11,777 bases of DNA from a virus (lineage: Duplodnaviria > Heunggongvirae > Uroviricota > Caudoviricetes), in the IMG/VR virus record IMGVR_UViG_2617270973_000006, positions 1 through 11,777 of that record; one strand, written 5' to 3'. Shown here in pieces: positions 1-8,609 of the stretch. Positions within the stretch are counted from its first letter, which is position 1. Each line of letters opens with the position of its first letter. The notes under the pieces were generated by a model. That model was given only the letters and a program-made list of their open reading frames with translations, searched no databases and was not told the origin of the DNA. Both the position numbers and the translations under genes were made by a program.

Positions 1-156
1 TTGCTTGCGCCAGAGAAATAACTGGCTGGCTGCCACACCGTGTTGCCGGGCAACAAGGGAGACCGTCATTCCCGGTTCAAAACTCTGCTGAACAATAGCG
101 ATCTTTTCCTGTGTAGTACGCCGTCTGCGTTTCTCCGGTCCTAAGACATCAATCAT
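1..156 (-). CDS. insC: IS2 transposase OrfA (InsC), N-terminal 52 codons only; CDS runs off the window start
   Basis: Minus-strand ATG at 156-154 translates to [52 protein letters not shown], matching the IS2 OrfA N-terminus as I recall it. Not in the ORF track because it is truncated by the window edge. Confidence 0.85.
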
Positions 157-247
157 CTGCTCTCCAATGACTAGTCTAAAAACTAGTATTAAGACTATCA
201 CTTATTTAAGTGATATTGGTTGTCTGGAGATTCAGGGGGCCAGTCTA
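1..247 (-). mobile_element. IS2 insertion sequence, left end (partial; continues beyond window start)
   Basis: Reverse complement of 171-247 reads TAGACTGGCCCCCTGAATCTCCAGACAACCAATATCACTTAAATAAGTGATAGTCTTAATACTAGTTTTTAGACTAG, which I recognise as the IS2 left terminal inverted repeat and leader; the element terminus (TAGACTG) falls at 241-247. Followed inward by the InsC start. From memory, no search run. Confidence 0.85.
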
Positions 248-327
248 GGATGTTAATGGCATTAGATATCCGGTTAGAGATGGATATCGTTGTTAATAAC
301 TCTAATTAATATGCCAATTGTTTACTA

Positions 328-360
328 AAAATTATTAAAAATGGGGCGTTGAGACGCCCC
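328..360 (-). terminator. Candidate rho-independent terminator about 140 nt 3' of the porin gene
   Basis: Perfect 7-bp GC-rich inverted repeat GGGGCGT/ACGCCCC (343-349 / 354-360) with a 4-nt loop; on the minus strand it is followed by ATTTTTAATAATTT (complement of 328-342). Confidence 0.4.
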
Positions 361-426
361 CAAAAATAAAGGGTAATATATAACAGAAGGTTTATATAGT
401 TAGAAGCAAGGTTGTGCTCCTAAAGG

Positions 427-473
427 AAGTGGCTTGAGGGAGCCACTTATATGTTGGGGAGGCAACGCCTCCC
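427..473 (-). terminator. Two tandem stem-loops immediately 3' of the porin stop codon (possible terminator or mRNA-stabilising hairpins)
   Basis: Perfect 8-bp inverted repeat AAGTGGCT/AGCCACTT (427-434 / 441-448) and perfect 7-bp GGGAGGC/GCCTCCC (457-463 / 467-473). Neither has a clean U-tract on the minus strand, hence low confidence as a terminator. Confidence 0.3.
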
Positions 474-498
474 GCAACATATCTTTTTCGTAATCAGA

Positions 499-1596
499 TT
501 AGAACTGGTAAACCAGACCTACAGCAACGATGTCATCAGTGCTTACACCGAGTGCTTTAGTGAAGTCATTTTTGTCAAGCAGGTTGATTTTGTAATCAAC
601 GAAAGTAGACATATTTTTGTTGAAGTAATAGGTTGCACCTACATCAACATATTTGACTAAGTCCTGATCGCCCCATACTCCAAGATCCTTACCTTTAGAT
701 TGCAGGTAAGCAACGGACGGACGCAGACCGAAATCGAACTGATATTGTGCAACAGCTTCGAAGTTTTGAGCTTTATTAGCAACGAAGTGATCAGCAAATA
801 CAGTCATATTCTGGGTTTCAGAATAGGTAGTGGCCAGGTAAATGTTGTTAGCGTCATATTTCAGACCTGCGGCCCAAACTTCTGCATTTTTACCGGAAGC
901 AAATACTTCAGGAAGAACTTTCCCTGCATTAACTTGAGTGTCGGTACGATCAGATTTCGCATAAGTTGCACCGATACCGAATCCTTCGTATTCATAGGTA
1001 GCAGAGAAACCGAAGCCATCACCGTTACCTTCGGTGTAGTTATCGAAATCGCTACGATCGTTTTTGCCTTGGTACTGAGCAGCAAAGTTCAGACCATCAA
1101 CCAGACCAAAGAAGTCGTTGTTACGATAGGTTGCAACACCAGTTGCACGTTGAGTCATGAACACGTCGGTTTGAGTCCAAGTGTCACCACCGAATTCTGG
1201 CAGGACGTCAGTCCACGCACCGATGTCGTATGCTACACCGTAGTTACGGCCGTAATCGATGGAGCCGTAGTCACCGAATTTCAGGCCAGCGAAGGCAAGA
1301 CGGGTTTTATCTTTGGAGGAACCTTGAGATTCAGCGCGGTTGCCTTTGAATTCATATTCCCACTGACCGAAACCAGTCAGTTGATCGTTGATTTGGGTTT
1401 CACCTTTGAAGCCAAGACGGGCATAAGTAGTATCACCATCATCTGCATCATTAGAGGAGAAGTAGTGCTTAGCATTAACTTTCCCGTACAGATCCAGCTT
1501 GTTACTGTCTTTATTATAAATTTCAGCTGCCTGAGCAGACATCGCCATCAGTACTGATGCAGCTACAGCAGAAATTGCCACTGTTAATTTTTTCAT
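499..1596 (-). CDS. nmpC: Outer-membrane general porin, NmpC/Lc (OmpC/OmpF/PhoE) family, prophage-encoded; 365 aa precursor
   Basis: Track ORF 499..1656; the real start is the internal ATG at 1596-1594 ([23 protein letters not shown] signal peptide then AEIYNKD...), preceded by a GGG-containing RBS. Porin hallmarks: [16 protein letters not shown] N-terminus, PEFGGD loop-3 motif, C-terminal ...VGLVYQF. Position between Q-side DNA and the holin mirrors nmpC in DLP12 and lc in PA-2. Confidence 0.9.
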
Positions 1597-2023
1597 CGTG
1601 AGCCCTTTTTTTGAACTATTATTAAAAAATGATGTCACTGCGCGATAAATATTCATCTAATCAATGTGATTATTTCAAGATGTAAGTTTTGGTTTCTCGT
1701 TTGATTTGTGAAGTAGATCTCTATTTTTATCTGAACTTTTTTCTATCGAATCCTATTCATGGCTCTTGGCTGAATAAAAATAAATCTATTAGCCAATTTA
1801 TATTAATGGCTGTTATTTATAAGTGCTCTATAATTTGAAGGTTCAATTTAAACCGGCTAAAAATAACACTGGAAATTATTTGTTGGTTATTTGTTGAGAT
1901 TTGCTTATGTATTTGTAGTGGTGTTTTCAATACTCGGTAGCATTCTCGCAAATATCATTTAGTGGTTTACGTACGTAAAAAATTGGTTATGCTGTTAAGA
2001 GTGGTTACTTCGTCACACAGCTT

Positions 2024-2056
2024 AAACCCGCCGTCGAGCGGGTTTTTCCATTTTTT
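2024..2056 (+). terminator. Rho-independent terminator upstream of the holin gene (candidate tR'-like late terminator or sRNA 3' end)
   Basis: AAACCCGC (2024-2031), loop CGTCGA, GCGGGTTT (2038-2045): a perfect 8-bp stem followed by TTCCATTTTTT (2046-2056). Confidence 0.5.
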
Positions 2057-2168
2057 GAGTCTCGATATTAGCTGATAACCCAATACCTGAGTTATTCACT
2101 GACTCCGAGTCTGTTACGTTTCGTAGTATTCCCTCAATTTACACCCGCTTTGTCTGCGAGGTGGGGTT

Positions 2169-2384
2169 ATGAAATCCATGGATAAGTTAACAACGGGTGT
2201 CGCCTATGGCACCTCAGCAGGTAGTGCCGGGTACTGGTTTTTACAGCTGCTAGATAAAGTCACGCCCTCACAGTGGGCGGCAATTGGAGTGCTGGGTAGC
2301 CTGGTATTTGGCCTGCTGACGTACCTGACAAACCTTTATTTCAAGATTAAAGAAGATAAGCGCAAGGCTGCGAGAGGTGAATAA
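2169..2384 (+). CDS. S: Class II holin (pinholin), phage 21 S21 family; 71 aa with MKSM dual start (antiholin Met1 / holin Met4)
   Basis: [71 protein letters not shown] closely resembles S21 / EssD as I recall it: two TM segments and a charged C-tail. Stop TAA overlaps the endolysin ATG (TAATG at 2382-2386). Confidence 0.9.
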
Positions 2385-2881
2385 TGCCTCCATCATTACG
2401 AAAAGCCGTTGCTGCTGCTATTGGTGGCGGAGCAATTGCTATAGCATCAGTGTTAATCACTGGCCCAAGTGGTAACGATGGTCTGGAAGGTGTCAGCTAC
2501 ATACCATACAAAGATATTGTTGGTGTATGGACTGTATGTCACGGGCATACAGGAAAAGACATCATGCTCGGTAAAACGTATACCAAAGCAGAATGCAAAG
2601 CCCTCCTGAATAAAGACCTTGCCACGGTCGCCAGACAAATTAACCCGTACATAAAAGTTGATATACCGGAAACAACGCGCGGCGCTCTTTACTCGTTCGT
2701 CTACAACGTGGGTGCTGGCAATTTCAGAACATCGACGCTTCTTCGCAAAATAAACCACGGTGATATCAAAGGCGCATGTGATCAGCTACGGCGCTGGACA
2801 TACGCTGGCGGTAATCAATGGAAAGGACTGATGACTCGCCGTGAGATTGAGCGTGAAGTCTGTTTGTGGGGGAAACAATGA
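2384..2881 (+). CDS. R: SAR (signal-arrest-release) endolysin, T4-lysozyme-like muramidase (phage 21 R21 / RrrD type), 165 aa
   Basis: N-terminal Gly/Ala-rich weakly hydrophobic SAR segment ([20 protein letters not shown]) followed by the E-x8-D-x5-T catalytic arrangement ([25 protein letters not shown]). Same length as the phage 21 endolysin; translationally coupled to S. Confidence 0.9.
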
Positions 2882-3345
2882 GCAGAGTAACCGCGATTAT
2901 CTCCGCTCTGGTTATCTGCATCATCGTCTGCCTGTCATGGGCTGTTAATCATTACCGTGATAACGCCATTACCTACAAAGCCCAGCGCGACAAAAATGTC
3001 AGAGAACTGAAGCTGGCGAACGCGGCAATTACTGACATGCAGATGCGTCAGCGTGATGTTGCTGCGCTCGATGCAAAATACACGAAGGAGTTAGCTGATG
3101 CGAAAGCTGAAAATGATGCTCTTCTGCGGAAGCTTGATAATGGTGGCAGGGTGCTCGTCAAAGGAAAATGCCCTGTGCCATCCTCTGCCGAAACCTCCAG
3201 CGCCTCCGGCATGGGCAATGATGCCACCGTCGAACTCTCTCCAGTTGCTGGACGAAACGTTCTCGATATCCGGGACGGAATTATCCGCGACCAAACAGCA
3301 CTGAGAACGCTTCAGGAATACATTAGGACGCAATGCCTTCGATGA
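2878..3345 (+). CDS. Rz: Rz i-spanin (inner-membrane spanin subunit), lambda type
   Basis: ATG at 2878 overlaps the endolysin stop (ATGA). The track ORF begins at an upstream GTG (2866), which I reject as the start. N-terminal TM helix ([20 protein letters not shown]), coiled-coil body, near-identical to lambda Rz as I recall it. Confidence 0.85.
3098..3304 (+). CDS. Rz1: Rz1 o-spanin (outer-membrane lipoprotein), embedded in the +1 frame of Rz
   Basis: AAGGAG RBS (3085-3090) 7 nt before ATG 3098; signal peptide with lipobox ([18 protein letters not shown]|C); proline-rich mature part ([16 protein letters not shown]) typical of Rz1; lies wholly inside Rz in another frame. Confidence 0.8.
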
Positions 3346-3520
3346 TAGCGATAATTTTACTCATCATCCTTCACATCTGGCTCTGTAGACAGGGTGGTGA
3401 TCACTTCTGGAGTAAATCCAGATTAAACATCTCATTGCTGATGCTTGATATTGAGCATCTGGCGCGCAGTAAGGGGCTGCGTTGAGATAAGAGCCAGTTC
3501 ATTACAAATACCAGGATTTA

Positions 3521-3545
3521 GCCTCGCATTCGCGGGGCTTTTTAT
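3521..3545 (+). terminator. Candidate rho-independent terminator downstream of the lysis cassette
   Basis: GCCTCGC (3521-3527), loop ATTC, GCGGGGC (3532-3538): 7-bp stem (six Watson-Crick pairs plus one G-U) followed by TTTTTAT. Confidence 0.45.
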
Positions 3546-3687
3546 ATCTGAATTTCACAGCGCATCTCACGCGCATATTAACGAGAGCCTTTCAGTAAGC
3601 GAGCCTGAGAAATGCCGTTATAGGTGGCGACCTCTCTCGGGCGGCTTTTCTGTGAGACAGGCTCACTTTCTAAAAGGTAAAGACGCT

Positions 3688-4212
3688 ATGAATAATCATT
3701 CAGTTATTCCAGCCTTCGACTTCCGAGAAATGGTGCAAGCCAAAAACGGAGAGGTCGTTACCACATCCAGAAAAATTGCCAAGTACTTCGGCAAGCGACA
3801 CGGTGATGTTCTCAGGAAAATCGAGCAGGTTAAGGCTGATTGCTCGCGTGAGTTTAGCCAACGCAATTTTGCGTCGGCTGATTATATCGATGAGCAGGGC
3901 AAGGTTCGCCCGATGTACAGCCTGACGAAAGATGGCTGGATCATGGTTGTGATGGGGTTCACCGGGAAAGCTGCTGCGGCAATCAAGGAGAGCTATATCG
4001 CAGCATTCAACTGGATGGCAGAACAACTGAGCCGCCGCATGGCAATTGGCGAAGAAATGCAGCACCGCTACGCCATCAAAGAAACACGCTCAAAGCTGAA
4101 AGGTACGATCGGCAGTCGGTTAATGAACGAACGGAAGAAAGAGAAGCGTGTCCTGGCTGTCGAGCATGAATACATCTTGCAGGTGACACAGCCTGAACTG
4201 CTGATTAATTGA
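3688..4212 (+). CDS. rha: Rha-family phage regulatory protein (pfam Phage_pRha-like), 174 aa
   Basis: Track ORF 3445..4212, but the credible start is ATG 3688 (MNNHSVIPAFD...) with an AAAAGG RBS. Rha signature stretch VTTSRKIAKYFGKRHGDVLRKI...MYSLTKDGWIMVVMGFTGKAAAAIKESYIAAFNWM. Occupies the slot where lambda carries bor. Confidence 0.75.
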   Translation: MNNHSVIPAFDFREMVQAKNGEVVTTSRKIAKYFGKRHGDVLRKIEQVKADCSREFSQRNFASADYIDEQGKVRPMYSLTKDGWIMVVMGFTGKAAAAIKESYIAAFNWMAEQLSRRMAIGEEMQHRYAIKETRSKLKGTIGSRLMNERKKEKRVLAVEHEYILQVTQPELLIN

Positions 4213-4514
4213 AGATGTCATTACAAAGCCTATCTACGGGGGGCTTGATAATGGCTTATACCCTGCACGGGATAACTTAACTGATATCCCTTTTAACGGA
4301 TAAAGGTATTCAAGCCTGACACATCATGCGCTGTATCGTCGCCGTATTCCCGCATTAACCATGACCGTAGCCCGACGGGGAATTCCTTCTGCGTGAGTGT
4401 GCGGGAATAATCAAAAACGATGCACACCGGGTTATTAACGCGTCAACTGAACGCGGGGTTGCTCTTCATGTCAGCCAGTCCGGTGCAGGGGTAGAAGAAA
4501 CCGGACGTTATGGT

Positions 4515-4925
4515 TTAGTGTGGAAACATTTGTGATGTGCTCTGTATGTTTTCAGTAAAGAGTAATGAATTATCAAAGGTATAGTAATATCTTTTTTGTT
4601 CGTGGATATTTGTAACCCACCGAAAAACTCCTGCTTTAGCAAGGTTTCTTCTGTATTCCTGAAATGTGATCTCTCTGGATTTCAGCTTATTAGAGGTCGT
4701 TTCTATAAGATGCCTATCCTTTGAAAATTTGACAGACACAATGTTTTTTAGGCCCTTTAATAACACTGTATTATCATTTTTTAATACAATATGAACATTC
4801 TCTGTGGCTAAATAGTAAATGTAATGTGAGACATTGTGACGTTTTAGCTCAGAATAAAACCATTGATAGTTTAAATCGTTTCGAACTTTATCAAATATTT
4901 GTTTAAAAATGACTACCTGATCCAT
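4515..4925 (-). CDS. DUF1398-family protein (YbcV/YdfO-like; homologue of the lambda right-end ORF annotated as a putative envelope protein); function unknown
   Basis: Track ORF 4515..4967 (GTG start); I favour ATG 4925 ([13 protein letters not shown]...), which has a GGAAGG RBS 7 nt upstream and gives 136 aa, the length I recall for YbcV. Visibly AT-rich relative to its neighbours. Family name is recalled, not searched. Confidence 0.65.
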
Positions 4926-4983
4926 AGATAAACCTTCCATGTGATATGAGGGGGGCGTAGTCTGCACGATTATCTAAATTGCT

Positions 4984-5217
4984 TCAATCTGGTCTGATCT
5001 GTTTTCTGAGCAATTCAGTAATGTCACTCTTTTCTTTGTTTGCTTCAGGAGAAACTCTTTTTTCTGAGCACAGTCTCCGGCGGCAGGCTTCAATGACCCA
5101 GGCTGAGAAATTCCCGGACCCTTTTTGATCAAGAGCGATGTTAATTTGTTCAATCATTTGGTTAGGAAAGCGGATGTTGCGGGTTGTTGTTCTGCGGGTT
5201 CTGTTCTTCGTTGACAT
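4984..5217 (-). CDS. Small DUF3950-family protein (YnfO/YlcI-like), predicted ribbon-helix-helix-like DNA-binding fold; function unknown
   Basis: 77-aa ORF with ATG at 5217-5215. MSTKNRTRRTTTRNIRFPNQMIEQINIALDQKGSGNFSAWVIEACRRRL has a basic N-tail, a beta strand and two helices, consistent with a CopG/Arc-like RHH. Sits immediately upstream of, and co-oriented with, the DUF1398 gene (16-bp gap), as in lambda and K-12 cryptic prophages. Confidence 0.65.
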   Translation of the reverse strand: MSTKNRTRRTTTRNIRFPNQMIEQINIALDQKGSGNFSAWVIEACRRRLCSEKRVSPEANKEKSDITELLRKQIRPD

Positions 5218-5379
5218 GAGGTTGTCCCGTATTCAGTGTCGCTGATTTGTATTGTCTGAAGTTGTTTTTACGTTAAGTTGATGCAGATCAATTAATACGA
5301 TACCTGCGTCATAATTGATTATTTGACGTGGTTTGATGGCGTAGATGCACGTTGTGACATGCAGATGATAATCATTATC

Positions 5380-5605
5380 ATTTTGCGGGTCCTTTCCGGC
5401 GATCCGACAGGTTACGGGGCGGCGACCTCGCGGGTTTTCGCTATTTATGAAAATTTTCCGGTTTAAGGCATTTCCGTTCTTCTTCGTCGTAACTTAATGT
5501 TTTTATTTAAAATACCCCCTGAAAAGAAAGGAAACGACAGGTGCTGAAAACGAGCTTTTGGGCCTCTGTCGTTTCCTTTCTCTGTTTTTGGCCGTGGAAT
5601 GAACA
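5380..5605 (+). other. Lambda-type cos packaging site (cosQ-cosN-cosB region) between the right-end genes and Nu1
   Basis: 5370-5416 matches the lambda right end (...GATGATAATCATTATCA...GGGTCCTTTCCGG.GATCCGACAGGTTACG) and 5417 onward matches the lambda left end (GGGCGGCGACCTCGCGGGTTTTCGCTATTTATGAAAATTTTCCGGTTTAAGGC...), up to the Nu1 start. From memory of the lambda sequence. Confidence 0.85.
5417..5428 (+). other. cosN: 12-nt cohesive-end sequence GGGCGGCGACCT (terminase nicking site)
   Basis: Exact match to the lambda 12-nt 5' overhang, flanked by lambda-like right-end and left-end sequence. Confidence 0.85.
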
Positions 5606-6130
5606 ATGGAAGTCAACAAAAAGCAGCTGGCTGACATTTTCGGTGCGAGTATCCGTACCATTCAGAACTGGCAGGAACAGGGAATGCCCGTTCTGCGAGG
5701 CGGTGGCAAGGGTAATGAGGTGCTTTATGACTCTGCCGCCGTTATAAGATGGTATGCCGAAAGGGATGCTGAAATTGAGAACGAAAAGCTGCGCCGGGAA
5801 GTTGAAGAACTGCGGCAGGCCAGCGAGACAGATCTCCAGCCAGGGACTATTGAGTACGAACGCCATCGACTTACGCGTGCGCAGGCCGACGCACAGGAGC
5901 TGAAAAATGCCAGAGACTCCGCTGAAGTGGTGGAAACCGCATTCTGTACTTTCGTGCTGTCGCGGATCGCAGGTGAAATTGCCAGTATTCTCGACGGGAT
6001 CCCCCTGTCGGTGCAGCGGCGTTTTCCGGAACTGGAAAACCGACATGTTGATTTCCTGAAACGGGATATCATCAAAGCCATGAACAAAGCAGCCGCGCTG
6101 GATGAACTGATACCTGACCACGCAGCGTAA
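5606..6130 (+). pseudogene. nu1: Terminase small subunit Nu1, C-terminally truncated by a deletion junction (about 170 lambda-like codons plus 4 novel codons, then stop)
   Basis: MEVNKKQLADIFGASIRTIQNWQEQGMPVLRGGGKGNEVLYDSAAVI... is near-identical to lambda gpNu1 through ...[14 protein letters not shown], then diverges (DHAA*) where the lambda protein continues into the gpA-interaction tail. The N-terminal winged-HTH cosB-binding domain is intact. Confidence 0.85.
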
Positions 6131-6140
6131 GGCGTGGGAT

Positions 6141-8609
6141 GTGCTCAGTGATTTCTGCTCGGCGATGCGCTGTATGCCGGTATGGAACGGGCAGACGCTG
6201 ACGTTCGTGCAGGACCGACCATCAGATAAGGTGTGGACCTATAACCGCAGTAATGTGGTGATGCCGGATGATGGCGCGCCGTTCCGCTACAGCTTCAGCG
6301 CCCTGAAGGACCGCCATAATGCCGTTGAGGTGAACTGGATTGACCCGAACAACGGCTGGGAGACGGCGACAGAGCTTGTTGAAGATACGCAGGCCATTGC
6401 CCGTTACGGTCGTAATGTCACGAAGATGGATGCCTTTGGCTGTACCAGCCGGGGGCAGGCACACCGCGCCGGGCTGTGGCTGATTAAAACGGAACTGCTG
6501 GAGACGCAGACCGTGGATTTCAGCGTGGGTGCTGAAGGGCTTCGCCATGTACCGGGCGATGTCATTGAAATCTGCGATGATGACTATGCCGGTATCAGCA
6601 CCGGTGGTCGCGTGCTGGCGGTGAACAGCCAGACCCGGACGCTGACGCTCGACCGTGAAATCACGCTGCCATCCTCCGGTACCACGCTGATAAGCCTGGT
6701 TGACGGAAGTGGTAATCCGGTCAGCGTGGAGGTTCAGTCCGTCACCGACGGACTTAAGGTGAAAGTGAACCGGGTTCCTGATGGCGTTGCAGAATACAGT
6801 GTGTGGGGGCTGAAGTTGCCGACGTTGCGTCAGCGCCTGTTCCGCTGTGTGAGTATCCGTGAGAACGATGACGGCACGTATGCCATCACTGCCGTGCAGC
6901 ATGTACCGGAAAAAGAAGCCATCGTGGATAACGGGGCGCACTTTGACGGCGACCAGAGCAGCACGGTGAATGGTGTCACGCCGCCAGCGGTGCAGCACCT
7001 GACCGCCGAAGTCACCGCAGACAGCGGGGAATATCAGGTGCTGGCGCGCTGGGACACGCCGAAGGTGGTGAAGGGCGTGAGCTTCCTGCTCCGTCTGACC
7101 GTAACAGCGGATGACAGCAGTGAGCGGCTGGTCAGCACGGCCCGGACGACGGAAACCACATACCGCTTCACGCAACTGGCGCTGGGGAACTACAGGCTGA
7201 CAGTCCGGGCGGTAAATGCGTGGGGGCAGCAGGGCGATCCGGCGTCGGTATCGTTCCGGATTGCCGCACCGGCAGCACCGTCGAGGATTGAGCTGACGCC
7301 GGGCTATTTTCAGATAACCGCCACGCCGCATCTTGCCGTTTATGACCCGACGGTACAGTTTGAGTTCTGGTTCTCGGAAAAGCGGATTACCGATATCAGG
7401 CAGGTTGAAACCACAGCACGCTATCTTGGCACGGCGCTGTACTGGATAGCCGCCAGTCTCAATATCAAACCGGGCCATGATTATTACTTTTATATCCGCA
7501 GTGTGAACACCGTTGGCAAATCGGCATTCGTGGAGGCTGTTGGTCAGCCGAGTGATGATGCATCCGGTTATCTGGATTTTTTCAAAGGCGAGATAGGGAA
7601 AACCCATCTGGCTCAGGAGCTGTGGACGCAGATTGATAACGGTCAGCTTGCGCCTGACCTGGCTGAAATCAGGACGTCCATTACGGATGTCAGCAATGAA
7701 ATCACGCAGACCGTCAATAAGAAACTGGAAGACCAGAGTGCGGCAATTCAGCAGATACAGAAGGTTCAGGTTGATACAAATAATAACCTGAACAGCATGT
7801 GGGCTGTGAAGCTGCAGCAGATGCAGGACGGACGCCTTTATATCGCGGGTATTGGTGCCGGTATTGAGAACACCCCTGACGGCATGCAGAGTCAGGTGCT
7901 GCTGGCGGCAGACAGGATTGCGATGATTAATCCTGCGAATGGCAACACAAAGCCGATGTTTGTTGGGCAGGGCGATCAGATATTCATGAACGAAGTGTTC
8001 CTGAAACGCCTGACGGCTCCCACCATTACCAGCGGCGGTAATCCTCCGGTATTTTCCCTGACACCGGACGGGCGGCTGACGGCGAAAAATGCCGATATCA
8101 GCGGTAACGTGAATGCGAACTCCGGGACGCTCAACAACGTCACGATTAACGAGAACTGTCGGGTTCTGGGAAAACTGTCCGCCAACCAGATTGAAGGCGA
8201 TCTCGTTAAAACAGTGGGCAAAGCTTTCCCCCGGGACTCCCGTGCACCGGAACGGTGGCCATCAGGGACCATCACCGTCAGGGTTTATGACGATCAGCCG
8301 TTTGACCGGCAGATTGTTATTCCGGCGGTGGCATTCAGCGGCGCTAAACATGAGCGGGAGAATAACGATATTTATTCGTCATACCGCCTGATAGTACGGA
8401 AAAACGGTGCTGAAATTTATAACCGTACCGCGCTGGATAATACGCTGATTTACAGTGGTGTTATTGATATGCCTGCCGGTCACGGTCACATGACACTGGA
8501 GTTTTCGGTGTCAGCATGGCTGGTAAATAACTGGTATCCCACAGCAAGTATCAGCGATTTGCTGGTTGTGGTGATGAAGAAAGCCACTGCAGGCATCACG
8601 ATTAGCTGA
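6141..8609 (+). pseudogene. J: Tail-tip / host-specificity protein J, 5'-truncated fragment (C-terminal roughly 820 codons of an about 1130-codon gene) fused downstream of the Nu1 remnant
   Basis: Track ORF begins at a GTG. Product ...[24 protein letters not shown]...[20 protein letters not shown]... is collinear with lambda gpJ from about residue 310 onward; no J N-terminus and no RBS. The same frame is open back to a stop at 6108-6110. The central and C-terminal receptor-binding parts diverge from lambda J. Confidence 0.85.

What the first reader, a model, noticed from the sequence alone, without database searches (positions are those of the whole stretch)
5370..6130. Intact cos site and Nu1 DNA-binding domain retained in a headless prophage: possible helper-dependent mobilisation
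cosQ/cosN/cosB look lambda-identical, and the Nu1 remnant keeps its N-terminal winged-HTH cosB-binding domain, while terminase large subunit and all structural genes are deleted. A cos-bearing defective element could be cut and packaged in trans by a superinfecting or co-resident lambda-type phage, giving cosmid-like transduction of the adjacent porin, lom and lysis cargo. The truncated Nu1 could instead act as a dominant-negative decoy against an incoming lambda-type terminase.
Basis: inference. Interest (0 to 1): 0.45.

Follow-up and report, generated by a model that had tools for sequence, protein, structure and literature searches.

The report
Stranded lambda cos in decayed prophage
This is a real, probably still cuttable lambda-type DNA-packaging site with a clipped small-terminase gene, left in a decaying DLP12-type prophage; such relics are common and known and cannot travel like a cosmid unaided, but the clipping point proves to be a recurrent deletion hotspot.

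Summary
The sequence features are real. Window 5055-6114 matches lambda 48141-48502 plus 1-699. cosN and the cosQ core are identical to lambda. R3, R2 and R1 lie in lambda order and orientation. The site is not lambda-identical: there are ten differences, including G54A in R3. However, 5374-6114 is 100% identical to the complete phage PhiR42_1, so the allele is probably functional.

Nu1' (174 aa) is Nu1 residues 1-170 plus DHAA. A TACC microhomology deletion fused it to J codon 328, removing A through I. A J remnant, lom and tail-fibre fragments remain.

In isolate F1005, a near-identical relative, the element is a 25.3-kb DLP12-like defective prophage at att-lambda. It has int and xis but no immunity or replication genes, and a single cos.

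Lambda-type cos occurs in 73% of complete E. coli genomes. Trans-packaging of defective lambdoid prophages is published.

Packaging would run away from the porin and lysis genes and needs a second cos. The cosmid-like scenario therefore holds only with a tandem helper or a multimer. The decoy idea has no support.

Unexpected result: about 30 independent deletions in E. coli prophages leave nu1 at this same codon 169/170. This hotspot is unexplained.

The parts
5387..5393 (+). cosQ core GGGTCCT (lambda 48473-48479), the packaging-termination signal
   Evidence: Identical to lambda in the alignment. Neighbouring changes lie at lambda 48467, 48471 and 48486 and are shared with the phages PhiR42_1, Kati and 2H10. 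The lambda coordinates of cosQ come from my own knowledge (Wieczorek and Feiss 2001). PMC4669245 states only that the 7-bp cosQ is highly conserved.
5415..5430 (+). cosN: the 12-bp cohesive-end sequence at 5417-5428 plus 2 bp on each side. The top-strand nick is at 5416/5417 and the bottom-strand nick at 5428/5429.
   Evidence: Exact match to lambda. Unique in the window, with 0.02 matches expected by chance. The definition of cosN as 16 bp is from PMC9026076.
5466..5481 (+). cosB R3 (lambda bp 50-65), the critical TerS binding site. It carries G54A at window 5470.
   Evidence: R3 spans bp 50-65, TerS contacts bp 55-63, and mutations with known defects lie at bp 56, 58 and 59 (PMC9026076). The change at bp 54 lies just outside the contact segment. 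It is present in phage PhiR42_1 and in E. coli C DLP12.
5482..5524 (+). Interval between R3 and R2, which in lambda holds the IHF site I1
   Evidence: Differs from lambda only at lambda 73 and 102. Both changes are shared with PhiR42_1 and 2H10, and that at lambda 73 also with Kati. The role of I1 is from PMC4669245 and PMC9026076. IHF binding was not tested.
5525..5540 (-). cosB R2
   Evidence: Exact 16-bp match to lambda, in inverted orientation.
5566..5581 (+). cosB R1
   Evidence: Exact 16-bp match to lambda. R2 and R1 form a strong inverted repeat (RNA fold -35.3 kcal/mol, z = -4.8). The loop between them carries three differences from lambda, including the 1-bp deletion.
5606..6130 (+). 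Truncated nu1 (small terminase subunit, TerS): residues 1-170 of Nu1 plus DHAA, 174 aa in all
   Evidence: It lacks lambda residues 171-181 (GLLSEYIEQSG), which belong to the C-terminal TerL-binding region (PMC9026076).
6111..6114 (+). Deletion junction: a TACC microhomology joining lambda 696-699 (nu1 codons 169-170) to lambda about 16486 (J codon 328)
   Evidence: The exact junction occurs in 1 of 5,426 complete E. coli genomes. The same nu1 breakpoint is used by many other deletions.
6115..8609 (+). J' remnant: the C-terminal two thirds of the tail-tip protein J, out of frame with nu1'. It is a pseudogene and not part of cos.
   Evidence: It carries the Pfam domains Phage-tail_3, Ig_J, Ig_J_second, Phage_Tail_Tip and Ig_GpJ_C.

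Best explanation
The region is the packaging site (cosQ-cosN-cosB) and the 5' 94% of the small-terminase gene of a lambda-specificity phage. It sits in a DLP12-family defective prophage. A microhomology (TACC) deletion of about 15.8 kb fused nu1 codon 170 to J codon 328 and removed terminase A and every head and tail-shaft gene.

Shown: the cos allele is base-for-base that of a complete phage, so it should still be bound and nicked by a lambda-specificity terminase made by another phage in the same cell.

Inferred, from established lambda biology:
- Cutting would start one-way packaging toward J', lom, the tail-fibre fragments, attR and then the host bio-uvrB side.
- With only one cos and no replication module, packaging cannot be completed into an infectious particle.
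- The routine consequence is therefore a terminase-made double-strand break, and about 1 kb of near-perfect homology that feeds recombination with passing lambdoid phages. This has been measured for K-12 DLP12.
- Transfer of the element itself needs a second cos. A helper integrated at attL would give a 43.5-kb cos-to-cos unit carrying int through the porin and lysis genes. A dimer would measure 50.6 kb.

The Nu1 fragment is most simply a by-product of a deletion hotspot at nu1 codon 169/170, not a retained function.
For: Identity and anatomy:
- Similarity to lambda and the anatomy of cos.
- 100% identity of 5374-6114 to phage PhiR42_1, which encodes full Nu1, A, W and B. Phages of this PhiR series are used in plaque assays (PMC13190303).

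Context in isolate F1005 (3 mismatches over 11,530 bp):
- Perfect 15-bp lambda att cores lie 25,304 bp apart.
- int and xis are intact.
- cI, cro, O and ori are absent, and only a fragment of P remains.
- No genes from A to I are present.
- No second cosN lies within 58 kb downstream.

Shared ancestry: the same nu1 breakpoint occurs in E. coli B/C DLP12, and about 940 bp around the junction are identical.

Prevalence: lambda-type cos is present in 3,984 of 5,426 complete genomes.

Literature:
- K-12 DLP12 cos/nu1 recombines with lambda, with junctions concentrated next to cos, and DLP12 nu1 works in lambda (PMC3945230).
- cos terminases need a second cos.

Hotspot:
- About 30 distinct fusion partners at Nu1 residues 168-170.
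- 9 of 9 junctions examined at DNA level fall at lambda 697-699.
- 4 of 5 sampled partial genome hits end at lambda 696-701.
- 88 of 88 phage records are intact.
Against: - No experiment shows that this allele is cut. G54A lies inside R3, the most critical TerS site, one base from the segment contacted by TerS.
- The genome context of the window's own strain is unknown. Its first 247 bases are an IS end that F1005 lacks.
- The same headless late module sits at argU in B/C strains and at att-lambda in F1005, where argU is empty. It has therefore moved between prophages at some time. Helper-assisted transfer could explain this as well as recombination can.
- The sharpness of the hotspot is unexplained, and selection for a Nu1 lacking its C-terminus is not excluded.
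Confidence: 0.8

Rival explanations
1. The element is a helper-dependent mobile element, like a satellite or cosmid. A lambda-type helper supplies Int/Xis, terminase and capsids, and the cos-bearing prophage is excised, packaged and transferred.
For: - Intact int, xis and both att cores, with lambda specificity.
- A cos identical to that of a complete phage.
- A dimer would be 50.6 kb. A helper at attL would give a 43.5-kb cos-to-cos interval, which is within lambda's packaging range.
- Defective lambdoid prophages lacking terminase or head genes are packaged in O157 Sakai (PMC2669165).
- The same headless nu1-J module occurs at two different integration sites.
Against: - No replication module, so no concatemers.
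- Only a single cos.
- The monomer is 52% of lambda length, below the packaging minimum.
- The exact junction was found in one complete genome, and its att-lambda relatives in three. This is not the spread expected of a successful mobile element.
- It fails the published PICI criteria.
Confidence: 0.12
2. The truncated Nu1 is a retained anti-phage decoy. It keeps the cosB-binding winged helix-turn-helix and the oligomerisation domain but lacks the extreme C-terminal TerL-binding tail. It would therefore poison the terminase of incoming lambda-specificity phages or occupy their cosB.
For: - Residues 1-170 are intact and the DNA-recognition elements are unchanged.
- TerS lacking its last 30 residues binds TerL poorly (PMC9026076).
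- Interference through TerS is a known strategy: PICI Rpp binds TerS (PDB 6HN7 matched).
- Nu1 fragments ending at residue 169/170 recur in many independent prophage lineages.
Against: - Only 11 residues are missing, and their role has not been tested.
- No promoter stands out above chance.
- Expression depends on the late operon, and that operon's Q gene is interrupted by an IS in this window.
- The coding sequence is identical to a phage allele, so there is no signature of selection.
- Breakpoints pile up within 3 bp. This precision points to a mechanism, not to selection on protein length.
- Many fusion tails are random out-of-frame peptides.
- No literature on NohA or NohD function was found.
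Confidence: 0.06
3. The cos is dead: the R3 G54A change and the other substitutions abolish terminase recognition, and the region is inert sequence.
For: G54A lies within R3 (bp 50-65), the TerS site where mutations are most severe.
Against: The identical cos allele, with all ten differences, is carried by the complete phage PhiR42_1, which encodes a full terminase. Position 54 lies outside the contacted bp 55-63 and is not among the known defective positions 56, 58 and 59.
Confidence: 0.04

Closest known systems
cos-nohD region of cryptic prophage DLP12 (qsr') in E. coli K-12
   Same: - The gene order is the same: quuD, porin (nmpC), essD, rrrD, rzpD, then DUF1398, ylcI, cos and nu1.
- It has a lambda-type cos and nu1.
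- It is known to recombine with infecting lambda, with junctions concentrated at cos, and to supply a working nu1 (PMC3945230).
   Different: - K-12 keeps full-length nohD (181 aa) plus a 309-bp fragment of A fused to tfaD. Here nu1 stops at codon 170 and is fused to J.
- K-12 DLP12 sits at argU. The nearest complete relative of this window sits at att-lambda, with lambda-type int and xis.
- This window has an intact porin gene and a Rha-family gene in place of bor.
DLP12 of E. coli B, C and ATCC 8739
   Same: The nu1 breakpoint is identical (lambda 699, TACC), and about 940 bp around the junction are identical. It is also headless with a J remnant.
   Different: - In B/C strains J starts at lambda 16135, 348 bp earlier than here. 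The Nu1 remnant is 191 aa, not 174 aa.
- The window's junction looks like a second TACC-to-TACC deletion of the B/C junction.
- Overall identity is only 91-95% outside the cos-nu1 segment.
Qin prophage nohA (E. coli K-12)
   Same: It is another cos plus Nu1 remnant fused directly to tail-fibre genes.
   Different: The breakpoint is at lambda 719 (Nu1 residue 176) and is joined to stfQ. It is an independent event.
O157 Sakai defective prophage Sp4, packaged by Sp14 terminase (Asadulghani et al. 2009, PMC2669165)
   Same: A lambdoid prophage without a working nu1 whose cos matches that of a co-resident phage. The paper proposes packaging in trans.
   Different: - Sp4 is amplified by regional replication of a neighbouring prophage and keeps most of its morphogenetic genes.
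- Here no co-resident lambda-type nu1 was seen in the nearest genome (one place only), and there is no replication source.
cos-type PICIs such as EcCICFT073, and laboratory cosmids
   Same: They carry a lambda-like cosN and are transferred by lambda or phi80 helpers (PMC6092414).
   Different: - PICIs replicate, form concatemers, use their own att sites, lack lysis genes, are 12-15 kb long, and redirect TerS with Rpp to a different cosB.
- This element has a phage-type cosB, lysis genes and a prophage att site. It is 25 kb long and has no replicon.

Membership tests
lambda-type cos site | cosN: 12-bp cohesive-end sequence with flanking symmetric bases | tested here: met
   Window 5415-5430 is identical to lambda and unique in the window.
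lambda-type cos site | 7-bp cosQ upstream of cosN | tested here: met
   GGGTCCT at 5387-5393 is identical to lambda and at the same distance from cosN.
lambda-type cos site | Complex cosB: R3, I1, R2, R1, with R2 inverted and native cosN-to-R3 spacing | tested here: met
   R3 (+), R2 (-) and R1 (+) are present. There are no indels between cosN and R2. R3 has one substitution (G54A), which is shared with a complete phage.
lambda-type cos site | Cleavage by terminase, and IHF binding at I1 | not testable with these tools
   Inferred only, from 100% identity to the cos of PhiR42_1.
Nu1 / lambda small terminase subunit (PF07471) | [quoted passage not shown] | tested here: met
   Residues 1-47 are identical to lambda. 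PDB entries 1J9I and 6HN7 match. Pfam E = 2e-101.
Nu1 / lambda small terminase subunit (PF07471) | Complete C-terminal TerL-binding region (last 30-40 residues) | tested here: not met
   Residues 171-181 are replaced by DHAA. The domain limits are from PMC9026076.
Nu1 / lambda small terminase subunit (PF07471) | Adjacent, overlapping large-subunit gene A | tested here: not met
   Lambda 700-16485 is absent, and no terminase large subunit is annotated anywhere in the F1005 element.
DLP12-family cryptic lambdoid prophage | Late-region gene order: quuD, nmpC-type porin, essD, rrrD, rzp, ylcI, cos, nu1 | tested here: met
   Identity to B/C DLP12 is 91-99%.
DLP12-family cryptic lambdoid prophage | Integration at argU with intD | tested here: not met
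   In F1005 the element lies between ybhC and ybhB with lambda att cores and lambda-type int/xis, and argU is empty. The location in the window's own strain is unknown.
Phage-inducible chromosomal island (PICI) | Integrase, master regulator (alpA) and replication module | tested here: not met
   int is present, but no alpA or primase-replicase is annotated, and O and ori are missing. Criteria are from PMC6092414.
Phage-inducible chromosomal island (PICI) | Own att site never used by prophages; no phage structural or lytic genes; size 12-15 kb | tested here: not met
   The element sits at att-lambda. It has essD, rrrD, a spanin gene, J', lom and stf fragments, and is 25.3 kb long.
Cosmid-like packageable unit | Two cos sites in the same orientation about 38-51 kb apart, or a replicon that makes concatemers | tested here: not met
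   There is one cosN in the window, none in the 24 kb upstream or 58 kb downstream in F1005, and no replication genes.

The most novel reading that the evidence does not exclude
The truncation point of this Nu1 is not accidental. nu1 codon 169/170 (lambda 696-699, GAACTGA-TA-CC, just 5' of a CCGG) is a one-sided deletion hotspot. It repeatedly removes the head and tail genes of lambda-type prophages in E. coli while leaving cos and a TerS that lacks its TerL-binding tail. The left end is fixed to within 3 bp. The right end lies anywhere from 45 bp to more than 25 kb away. This suggests a site-directed break or a protected DNA end. Candidate causes are a nuclease, recombinase or topoisomerase site, or a restriction-type cut at CCGG. 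A smaller cluster of junctions sits at the other CCGG in this part of nu1. If true, this would be a specific route by which hosts or rival elements disarm lambdoid prophages, and the leftover Nu1 lacking its C-terminus could itself interfere with related phages.
Probability: 0.25. Interest if true: 0.65.

Novelty: new member of a known kind. Interest (0 to 1): 0.32.

Why it matters
As submitted, the finding matters little. Stranded lambda-type cos sites with Nu1 remnants occur in most E. coli genomes. Their recombination with incoming phages, and the trans-packaging of defective lambdoid prophages, are already documented.

Two things are worth keeping:
- A stranded cos must be judged by direction and geometry. 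Packaging leaves cos toward nu1 and needs a second cos 38-51 kb away. In this element that predicts which genes could travel, and only with a tandem helper.
- The deletion that made this relic uses a breakpoint shared by dozens of independent deletions. If that hotspot has a specific cause, it would explain why so many E. coli cryptic prophages are headless but keep cos, and it is directly testable.

Tried and rejected
- **Known RNA families.** An Rfam gathering scan of the whole window found none.
- **Promoter for nu1'.** The scan gave 2 consensus-like sites against 1.8 expected by chance, so this is not evidence.
- **Palindrome or hairpin at the hotspot.** None at lambda 690-705. The nearest inverted repeat starts 22 bp to the right.
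- **Chi.** Only a 6-of-8 match (GCTGGATG, lambda 682-689) lies nearby. By my own knowledge lambda has no Chi sites. Rejected.
- **Natural mosaic boundary at the nu1/A border.** Kati, 2H10 and PhiR42_1 are collinear with lambda across it, and all 88 phage records are intact. Rejected.
- **Lambda Int secondary att site, or Din-family invertase site, at the hotspot.** By-eye comparison gave only 5 of 7 overlap matches with poor core arms, and essentially no match to the invertase half-site consensus. Prophages with different integrases share the hotspot. Not supported.
- **Integrase of an inserted island as the cause.** The Nu1-integrase fusion (L014) proved to be one more right-hand endpoint. 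It lies inside a satellite that is inserted in the capsid gene.
- **Strict TA-for-TA crossover.** 16 of 25 mapped joints include the TA and 9 do not. A TA-specific recombinase is therefore not required. The pattern fits microhomology joining from a DNA end at 697-699.
- **Literature on NohA or NohD function, or on a nu1 deletion hotspot.** Nothing was found. One search was wasted on terms that matched nutrition papers.
- **In-vitro cutting of the E. coli chromosome by lambda terminase.** I recall a 1992 Nucleic Acids Research paper but did not find it in the library, so I do not use it.
Full report
**What is in the sequence**

Window 5055-5416 aligns with the right end of lambda (48141-48502, 95.3% identity). 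Window 5417-6114 aligns with the left end (1-699, 97.9%). The two ends are joined as in a circular or prophage genome.

- The 17-mer across cosN occurs once, at 5414-5430, against 0.02 expected by chance.
- The cohesive-end sequence is at 5417-5428.
- The 7-bp cosQ core GGGTCCT is at 5387-5393.
- Three TerS-binding R elements are present in the lambda arrangement: R3 at 5466-5481 (+), R2 at 5525-5540 (-) and R1 at 5566-5581 (+). About 0.23 are expected by chance.
- No indel changes the cosN-to-R3 spacing. That spacing is critical according to Murialdo and Feiss (PMC9026076).

Ten positions differ between lambda 48467 and 190. They include G54A inside R3 and a 1-bp deletion in the R2-R1 loop.

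These differences are a natural allele. From 5374 to 6114 the window is 100% identical to Escherichia phage PhiR42_1, whose record encodes full Nu1, A, W and portal. Phages of that series are used in plaque assays (PMC13190303). Position 54 lies outside the TerS contact segment (bp 55-63) and is not one of the known defective positions 56, 58 and 59. I therefore consider the cos very probably functional for a lambda-specificity terminase. This is an inference from identity, not a test.

**The Nu1 remnant and the deletion**

ORF 5606-6130 encodes 174 aa. Residues 1-170 are Nu1, with 167 of 170 identical to lambda and 170 of 170 identical to PhiR42_1. Four foreign residues (DHAA) follow. The protein matches Pfam Phage_Nu1 over the full model, and the solved N-terminal domain structures 1J9I and 6HN7. 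It lacks residues 171-181, which are part of the C-terminal TerL-binding region.

The junction is a TACC microhomology at 6111-6114. It joins lambda 699 to lambda about 16486, which is J codon 328, out of frame. Genes A, W, B, C, nu3, D, E, FI, FII, Z, U, V, G, T, H, M, L, K and I, and the first third of J, are gone. The rest of J, lom and side-tail-fibre fragments remain. 'Headless' is correct. 'All structural genes deleted' is not.

**Context**

The window matches isolate F1005 (NZ_OY754353.1) from base 248 to the end, with three mismatches. Bases 1-247 are the end of a multicopy IS3-family element. I recognise it as IS2-like. It is inserted in the 3' end of quuD and is absent from F1005. 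The window's own strain is therefore a close relative of F1005, not F1005 itself.

In F1005 the element:
- lies between ybhC and ybhB;
- is bounded by two perfect 15-bp lambda att cores 25,304 bp apart;
- has intact lambda-type int and xis;
- lacks exo through most of P, including cI, cro, O and ori.

From ren onward it is DLP12-like: emrE, ybcK, ybcN, ninE, ybcO, rusA, quuD, porin, essD and rrrD. The usual DLP12 site at argU is empty in F1005.

E. coli B, C and ATCC 8739 carry DLP12 at argU with the same nu1 breakpoint, joined 348 bp earlier in J, again through TACC. About 940 bp around the junction are identical to the window. The window's junction is most simply a second TACC-to-TACC deletion of the B/C junction.

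The exact junction occurs in one of 5,426 complete genomes, and the B/C type in 35.

Strains 1409 and ET358 carry the same att-lambda element. It is 100% identical over window 248-6112. A further 5.9-kb deletion starts 2 bp from the same spot.

**How it would work**

Lambda packaging starts when TerS binds cosB and TerL nicks cosN. The terminase stays on the cosB end, and DNA is translocated from that end. Termination needs cosQ and cosN of a downstream cos (PMC4669245; PMC6687093 and PMC8575938).

Applied here, a helper's terminase would cut at 5416/5417 and 5428/5429. It would then reel in nu1', J', lom, the tail-fibre fragments and attR (9.6 kb away in F1005), followed by ybhB, bio, uvrB and moa.

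F1005 has no second cosN within 58 kb downstream. It also shows no second lambda-type nu1 3' end or J copy (one place in that record). The element has no replicon, and as a monomer it is only 52% of lambda length. Cosmid-like transfer is therefore not expected from the element alone.

Transfer becomes geometrically possible in two cases (inference):
- A helper integrated at attL gives a cos-to-cos interval of 43.5 kb. That unit carries the helper's morphogenetic genes plus the element's int-to-cos part, including the porin and lysis genes. A helper at attR gives 30.3 kb, which is too short.
- A dimer of the element would be 50.6 kb.

The documented consequence of such a cos is recombination. 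In K-12, lambda picks up DLP12 markers at high frequency, and half of the junctions lie next to cos. The authors attribute this to cos breaks in both partners. DLP12 nu1 works in lambda (PMC3945230).

**Comparison with what is known**

Lambda-type cos (221 bp) is present in 3,984 of 5,426 complete E. coli genomes, with a median of two copies per genome. K-12 DLP12 has cos, full nohD and a fragment of A. Qin has cos and NohA, which is Nu1 1-176 fused to stfQ.

Asadulghani et al. showed that defective lambdoid prophages of O157 Sakai are packaged. Some of them lack an intact terminase or head genes. The authors proposed that Sp4 is packaged by Sp14 terminase because their cos sites are identical (PMC2669165). 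Helper-dependent packaging through cos is also the basis of cos-type PICIs (PMC6092414).

This element fails the PICI criteria on replication module, att site, lytic genes and size.

The decoy idea has a conceptual precedent in PICI Rpp, which binds TerS. No support for it was found at this locus:
- no dedicated promoter stands out above chance;
- the element's Q gene is interrupted in this window;
- the sequence is identical to a phage allele;
- I found no literature on NohA or NohD function.

**An unexpected result: a deletion hotspot**

A protein search with the 174-aa Nu1' returned many different Nu1 fusion proteins from E. coli. They leave the Nu1 sequence right after ...AALDEL-I(P). Counted by distinct tails, there are 4 junctions at residue 168, about 22 at 169 and 4 at 170. 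Elsewhere between residues 143 and 181 there are 0-2 per codon. A smaller cluster of 6 lies at residues 139-142.

The partners include portal, capsid E, FI, V, I, J, Lom (three different joints), Stf, Tfa, a satellite integrase, many out-of-frame tails, and one deletion of only about 45 bp into A.

At DNA level, nine different junctions all read GAACTGATA, GAACTGATAC or GAACTGATACC followed by foreign sequence. They come from the window, E. coli C, strain 1409, three contigs and three further complete genomes. Their upstream regions belong to different prophage types: DLP12-like, Qin-like and others.

In a ranked sample of complete genomes, 4 of 5 partial matches to a 400-bp probe centred on the site end at lambda 696-701, and none start there. 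All 88 phage records are intact.

Joints use 1-6 bp of microhomology, most often including the TA at lambda 696-697. This pattern fits a DNA end fixed at 697-699 that is joined to a variably resected partner.

The strain 1409 deletion arose from a parent in which the native right flank was already gone. The determinant therefore lies at or to the left of TACC.

Both clusters sit just 5' of the only two CCGG sites in that part of nu1, at lambda 611 and 698. I could not find a cause. Palindrome, Chi, Int secondary site, invertase site and natural mosaic boundary were all examined and not supported. Whatever the cause, the hotspot offers a simpler reason than selection for why this Nu1 keeps its DNA-binding domain.

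**Verdict**

It describes known biology. As given, the finding is of low interest. The hotspot at its right-hand edge is the part that deserves follow-up.

Noticed in passing
window 6111-6114 (nu1 codons 169-170); also L002, L009, L012-L014, L016-L018: nu1 codon 169/170 is a sharp, one-sided deletion hotspot in E. coli lambdoid prophages. About 30 distinct fusion partners are seen at residues 168-170, and 9 of 9 DNA-level junctions fall at lambda 697-699. The right-hand ends lie from 45 bp to more than 25 kb away. Viable phages are never broken at this site. The cause is unknown.
   Followed up: partly
lambda 605-617 (window about 6020-6032), Nu1 residues 139-142: A second, smaller cluster of six distinct Nu1 fusion junctions. 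Like the main hotspot it lies just 5' of a CCGG. The two clusters coincide with the only two CCGG sites in that part of nu1 (lambda 611 and 698).
   Followed up: partly
window 1-247: This is the end of a multicopy IS3-family insertion sequence, IS2-like by my recollection of its terminal repeat. It is inserted in the 3' end of the antiterminator gene quuD. The insertion is absent from the otherwise near-identical isolate F1005, so this strain's late operon has lost its own Q.
   Followed up: partly
L001 8423-33727 (F1005), L007 (argU locus): A DLP12-type late region with the B/C-type nu1 breakpoint sits inside a prophage at att-lambda that has lambda int/xis and perfect att cores. The normal DLP12 site at argU is empty. 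The headless module has therefore moved between prophages or integration sites. Whether this happened by recombination or by helper-assisted transfer is open.
   Followed up: partly
L009 31746/31747 and L010 (strains 1409, ET358): These strains carry the same att-lambda element with a further 5,899-bp deletion that removes J', lom and stf. The deletion starts 2 bp from the window's junction (TA microhomology) and gives a 198-aa Nu1 fusion.
   Followed up: yes
L015 10953-21990 (strain WP8-S17-ESBL-12) and 36 other complete genomes: An island of about 11 kb is inserted inside the major capsid gene E of a lambda-like prophage. It resembles a capsid-forming satellite. Its genes are an integrase, an AlpA-like regulator, a TIR-domain protein, an Icd-like protein, a primase, SSB, its own capsid and decoration proteins, a small terminase subunit and an Abi protein. 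In other strains a hotspot deletion runs from nu1 into its integrase.
   Followed up: no
window 5525-5581: R2 and R1 form a 17-bp perfect inverted repeat followed by a T-run (RNA fold -35.3 kcal/mol, z = -4.8). On a transcript without Q antitermination it could act as a terminator just upstream of nu1.
   Followed up: partly
window 7627-8609: The C-terminal receptor-binding part of the J remnant diverges from lambda J: 77% identity over 7796-8159 and no DNA match beyond. This implies a receptor specificity different from lambda's.
   Followed up: no
L001 31758-33089 (outside the window): A sensor diguanylate cyclase gene sits in the b-region position of the att-lambda element, between the tail-fibre fragments and attR. 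It is a probable moron.
   Followed up: no
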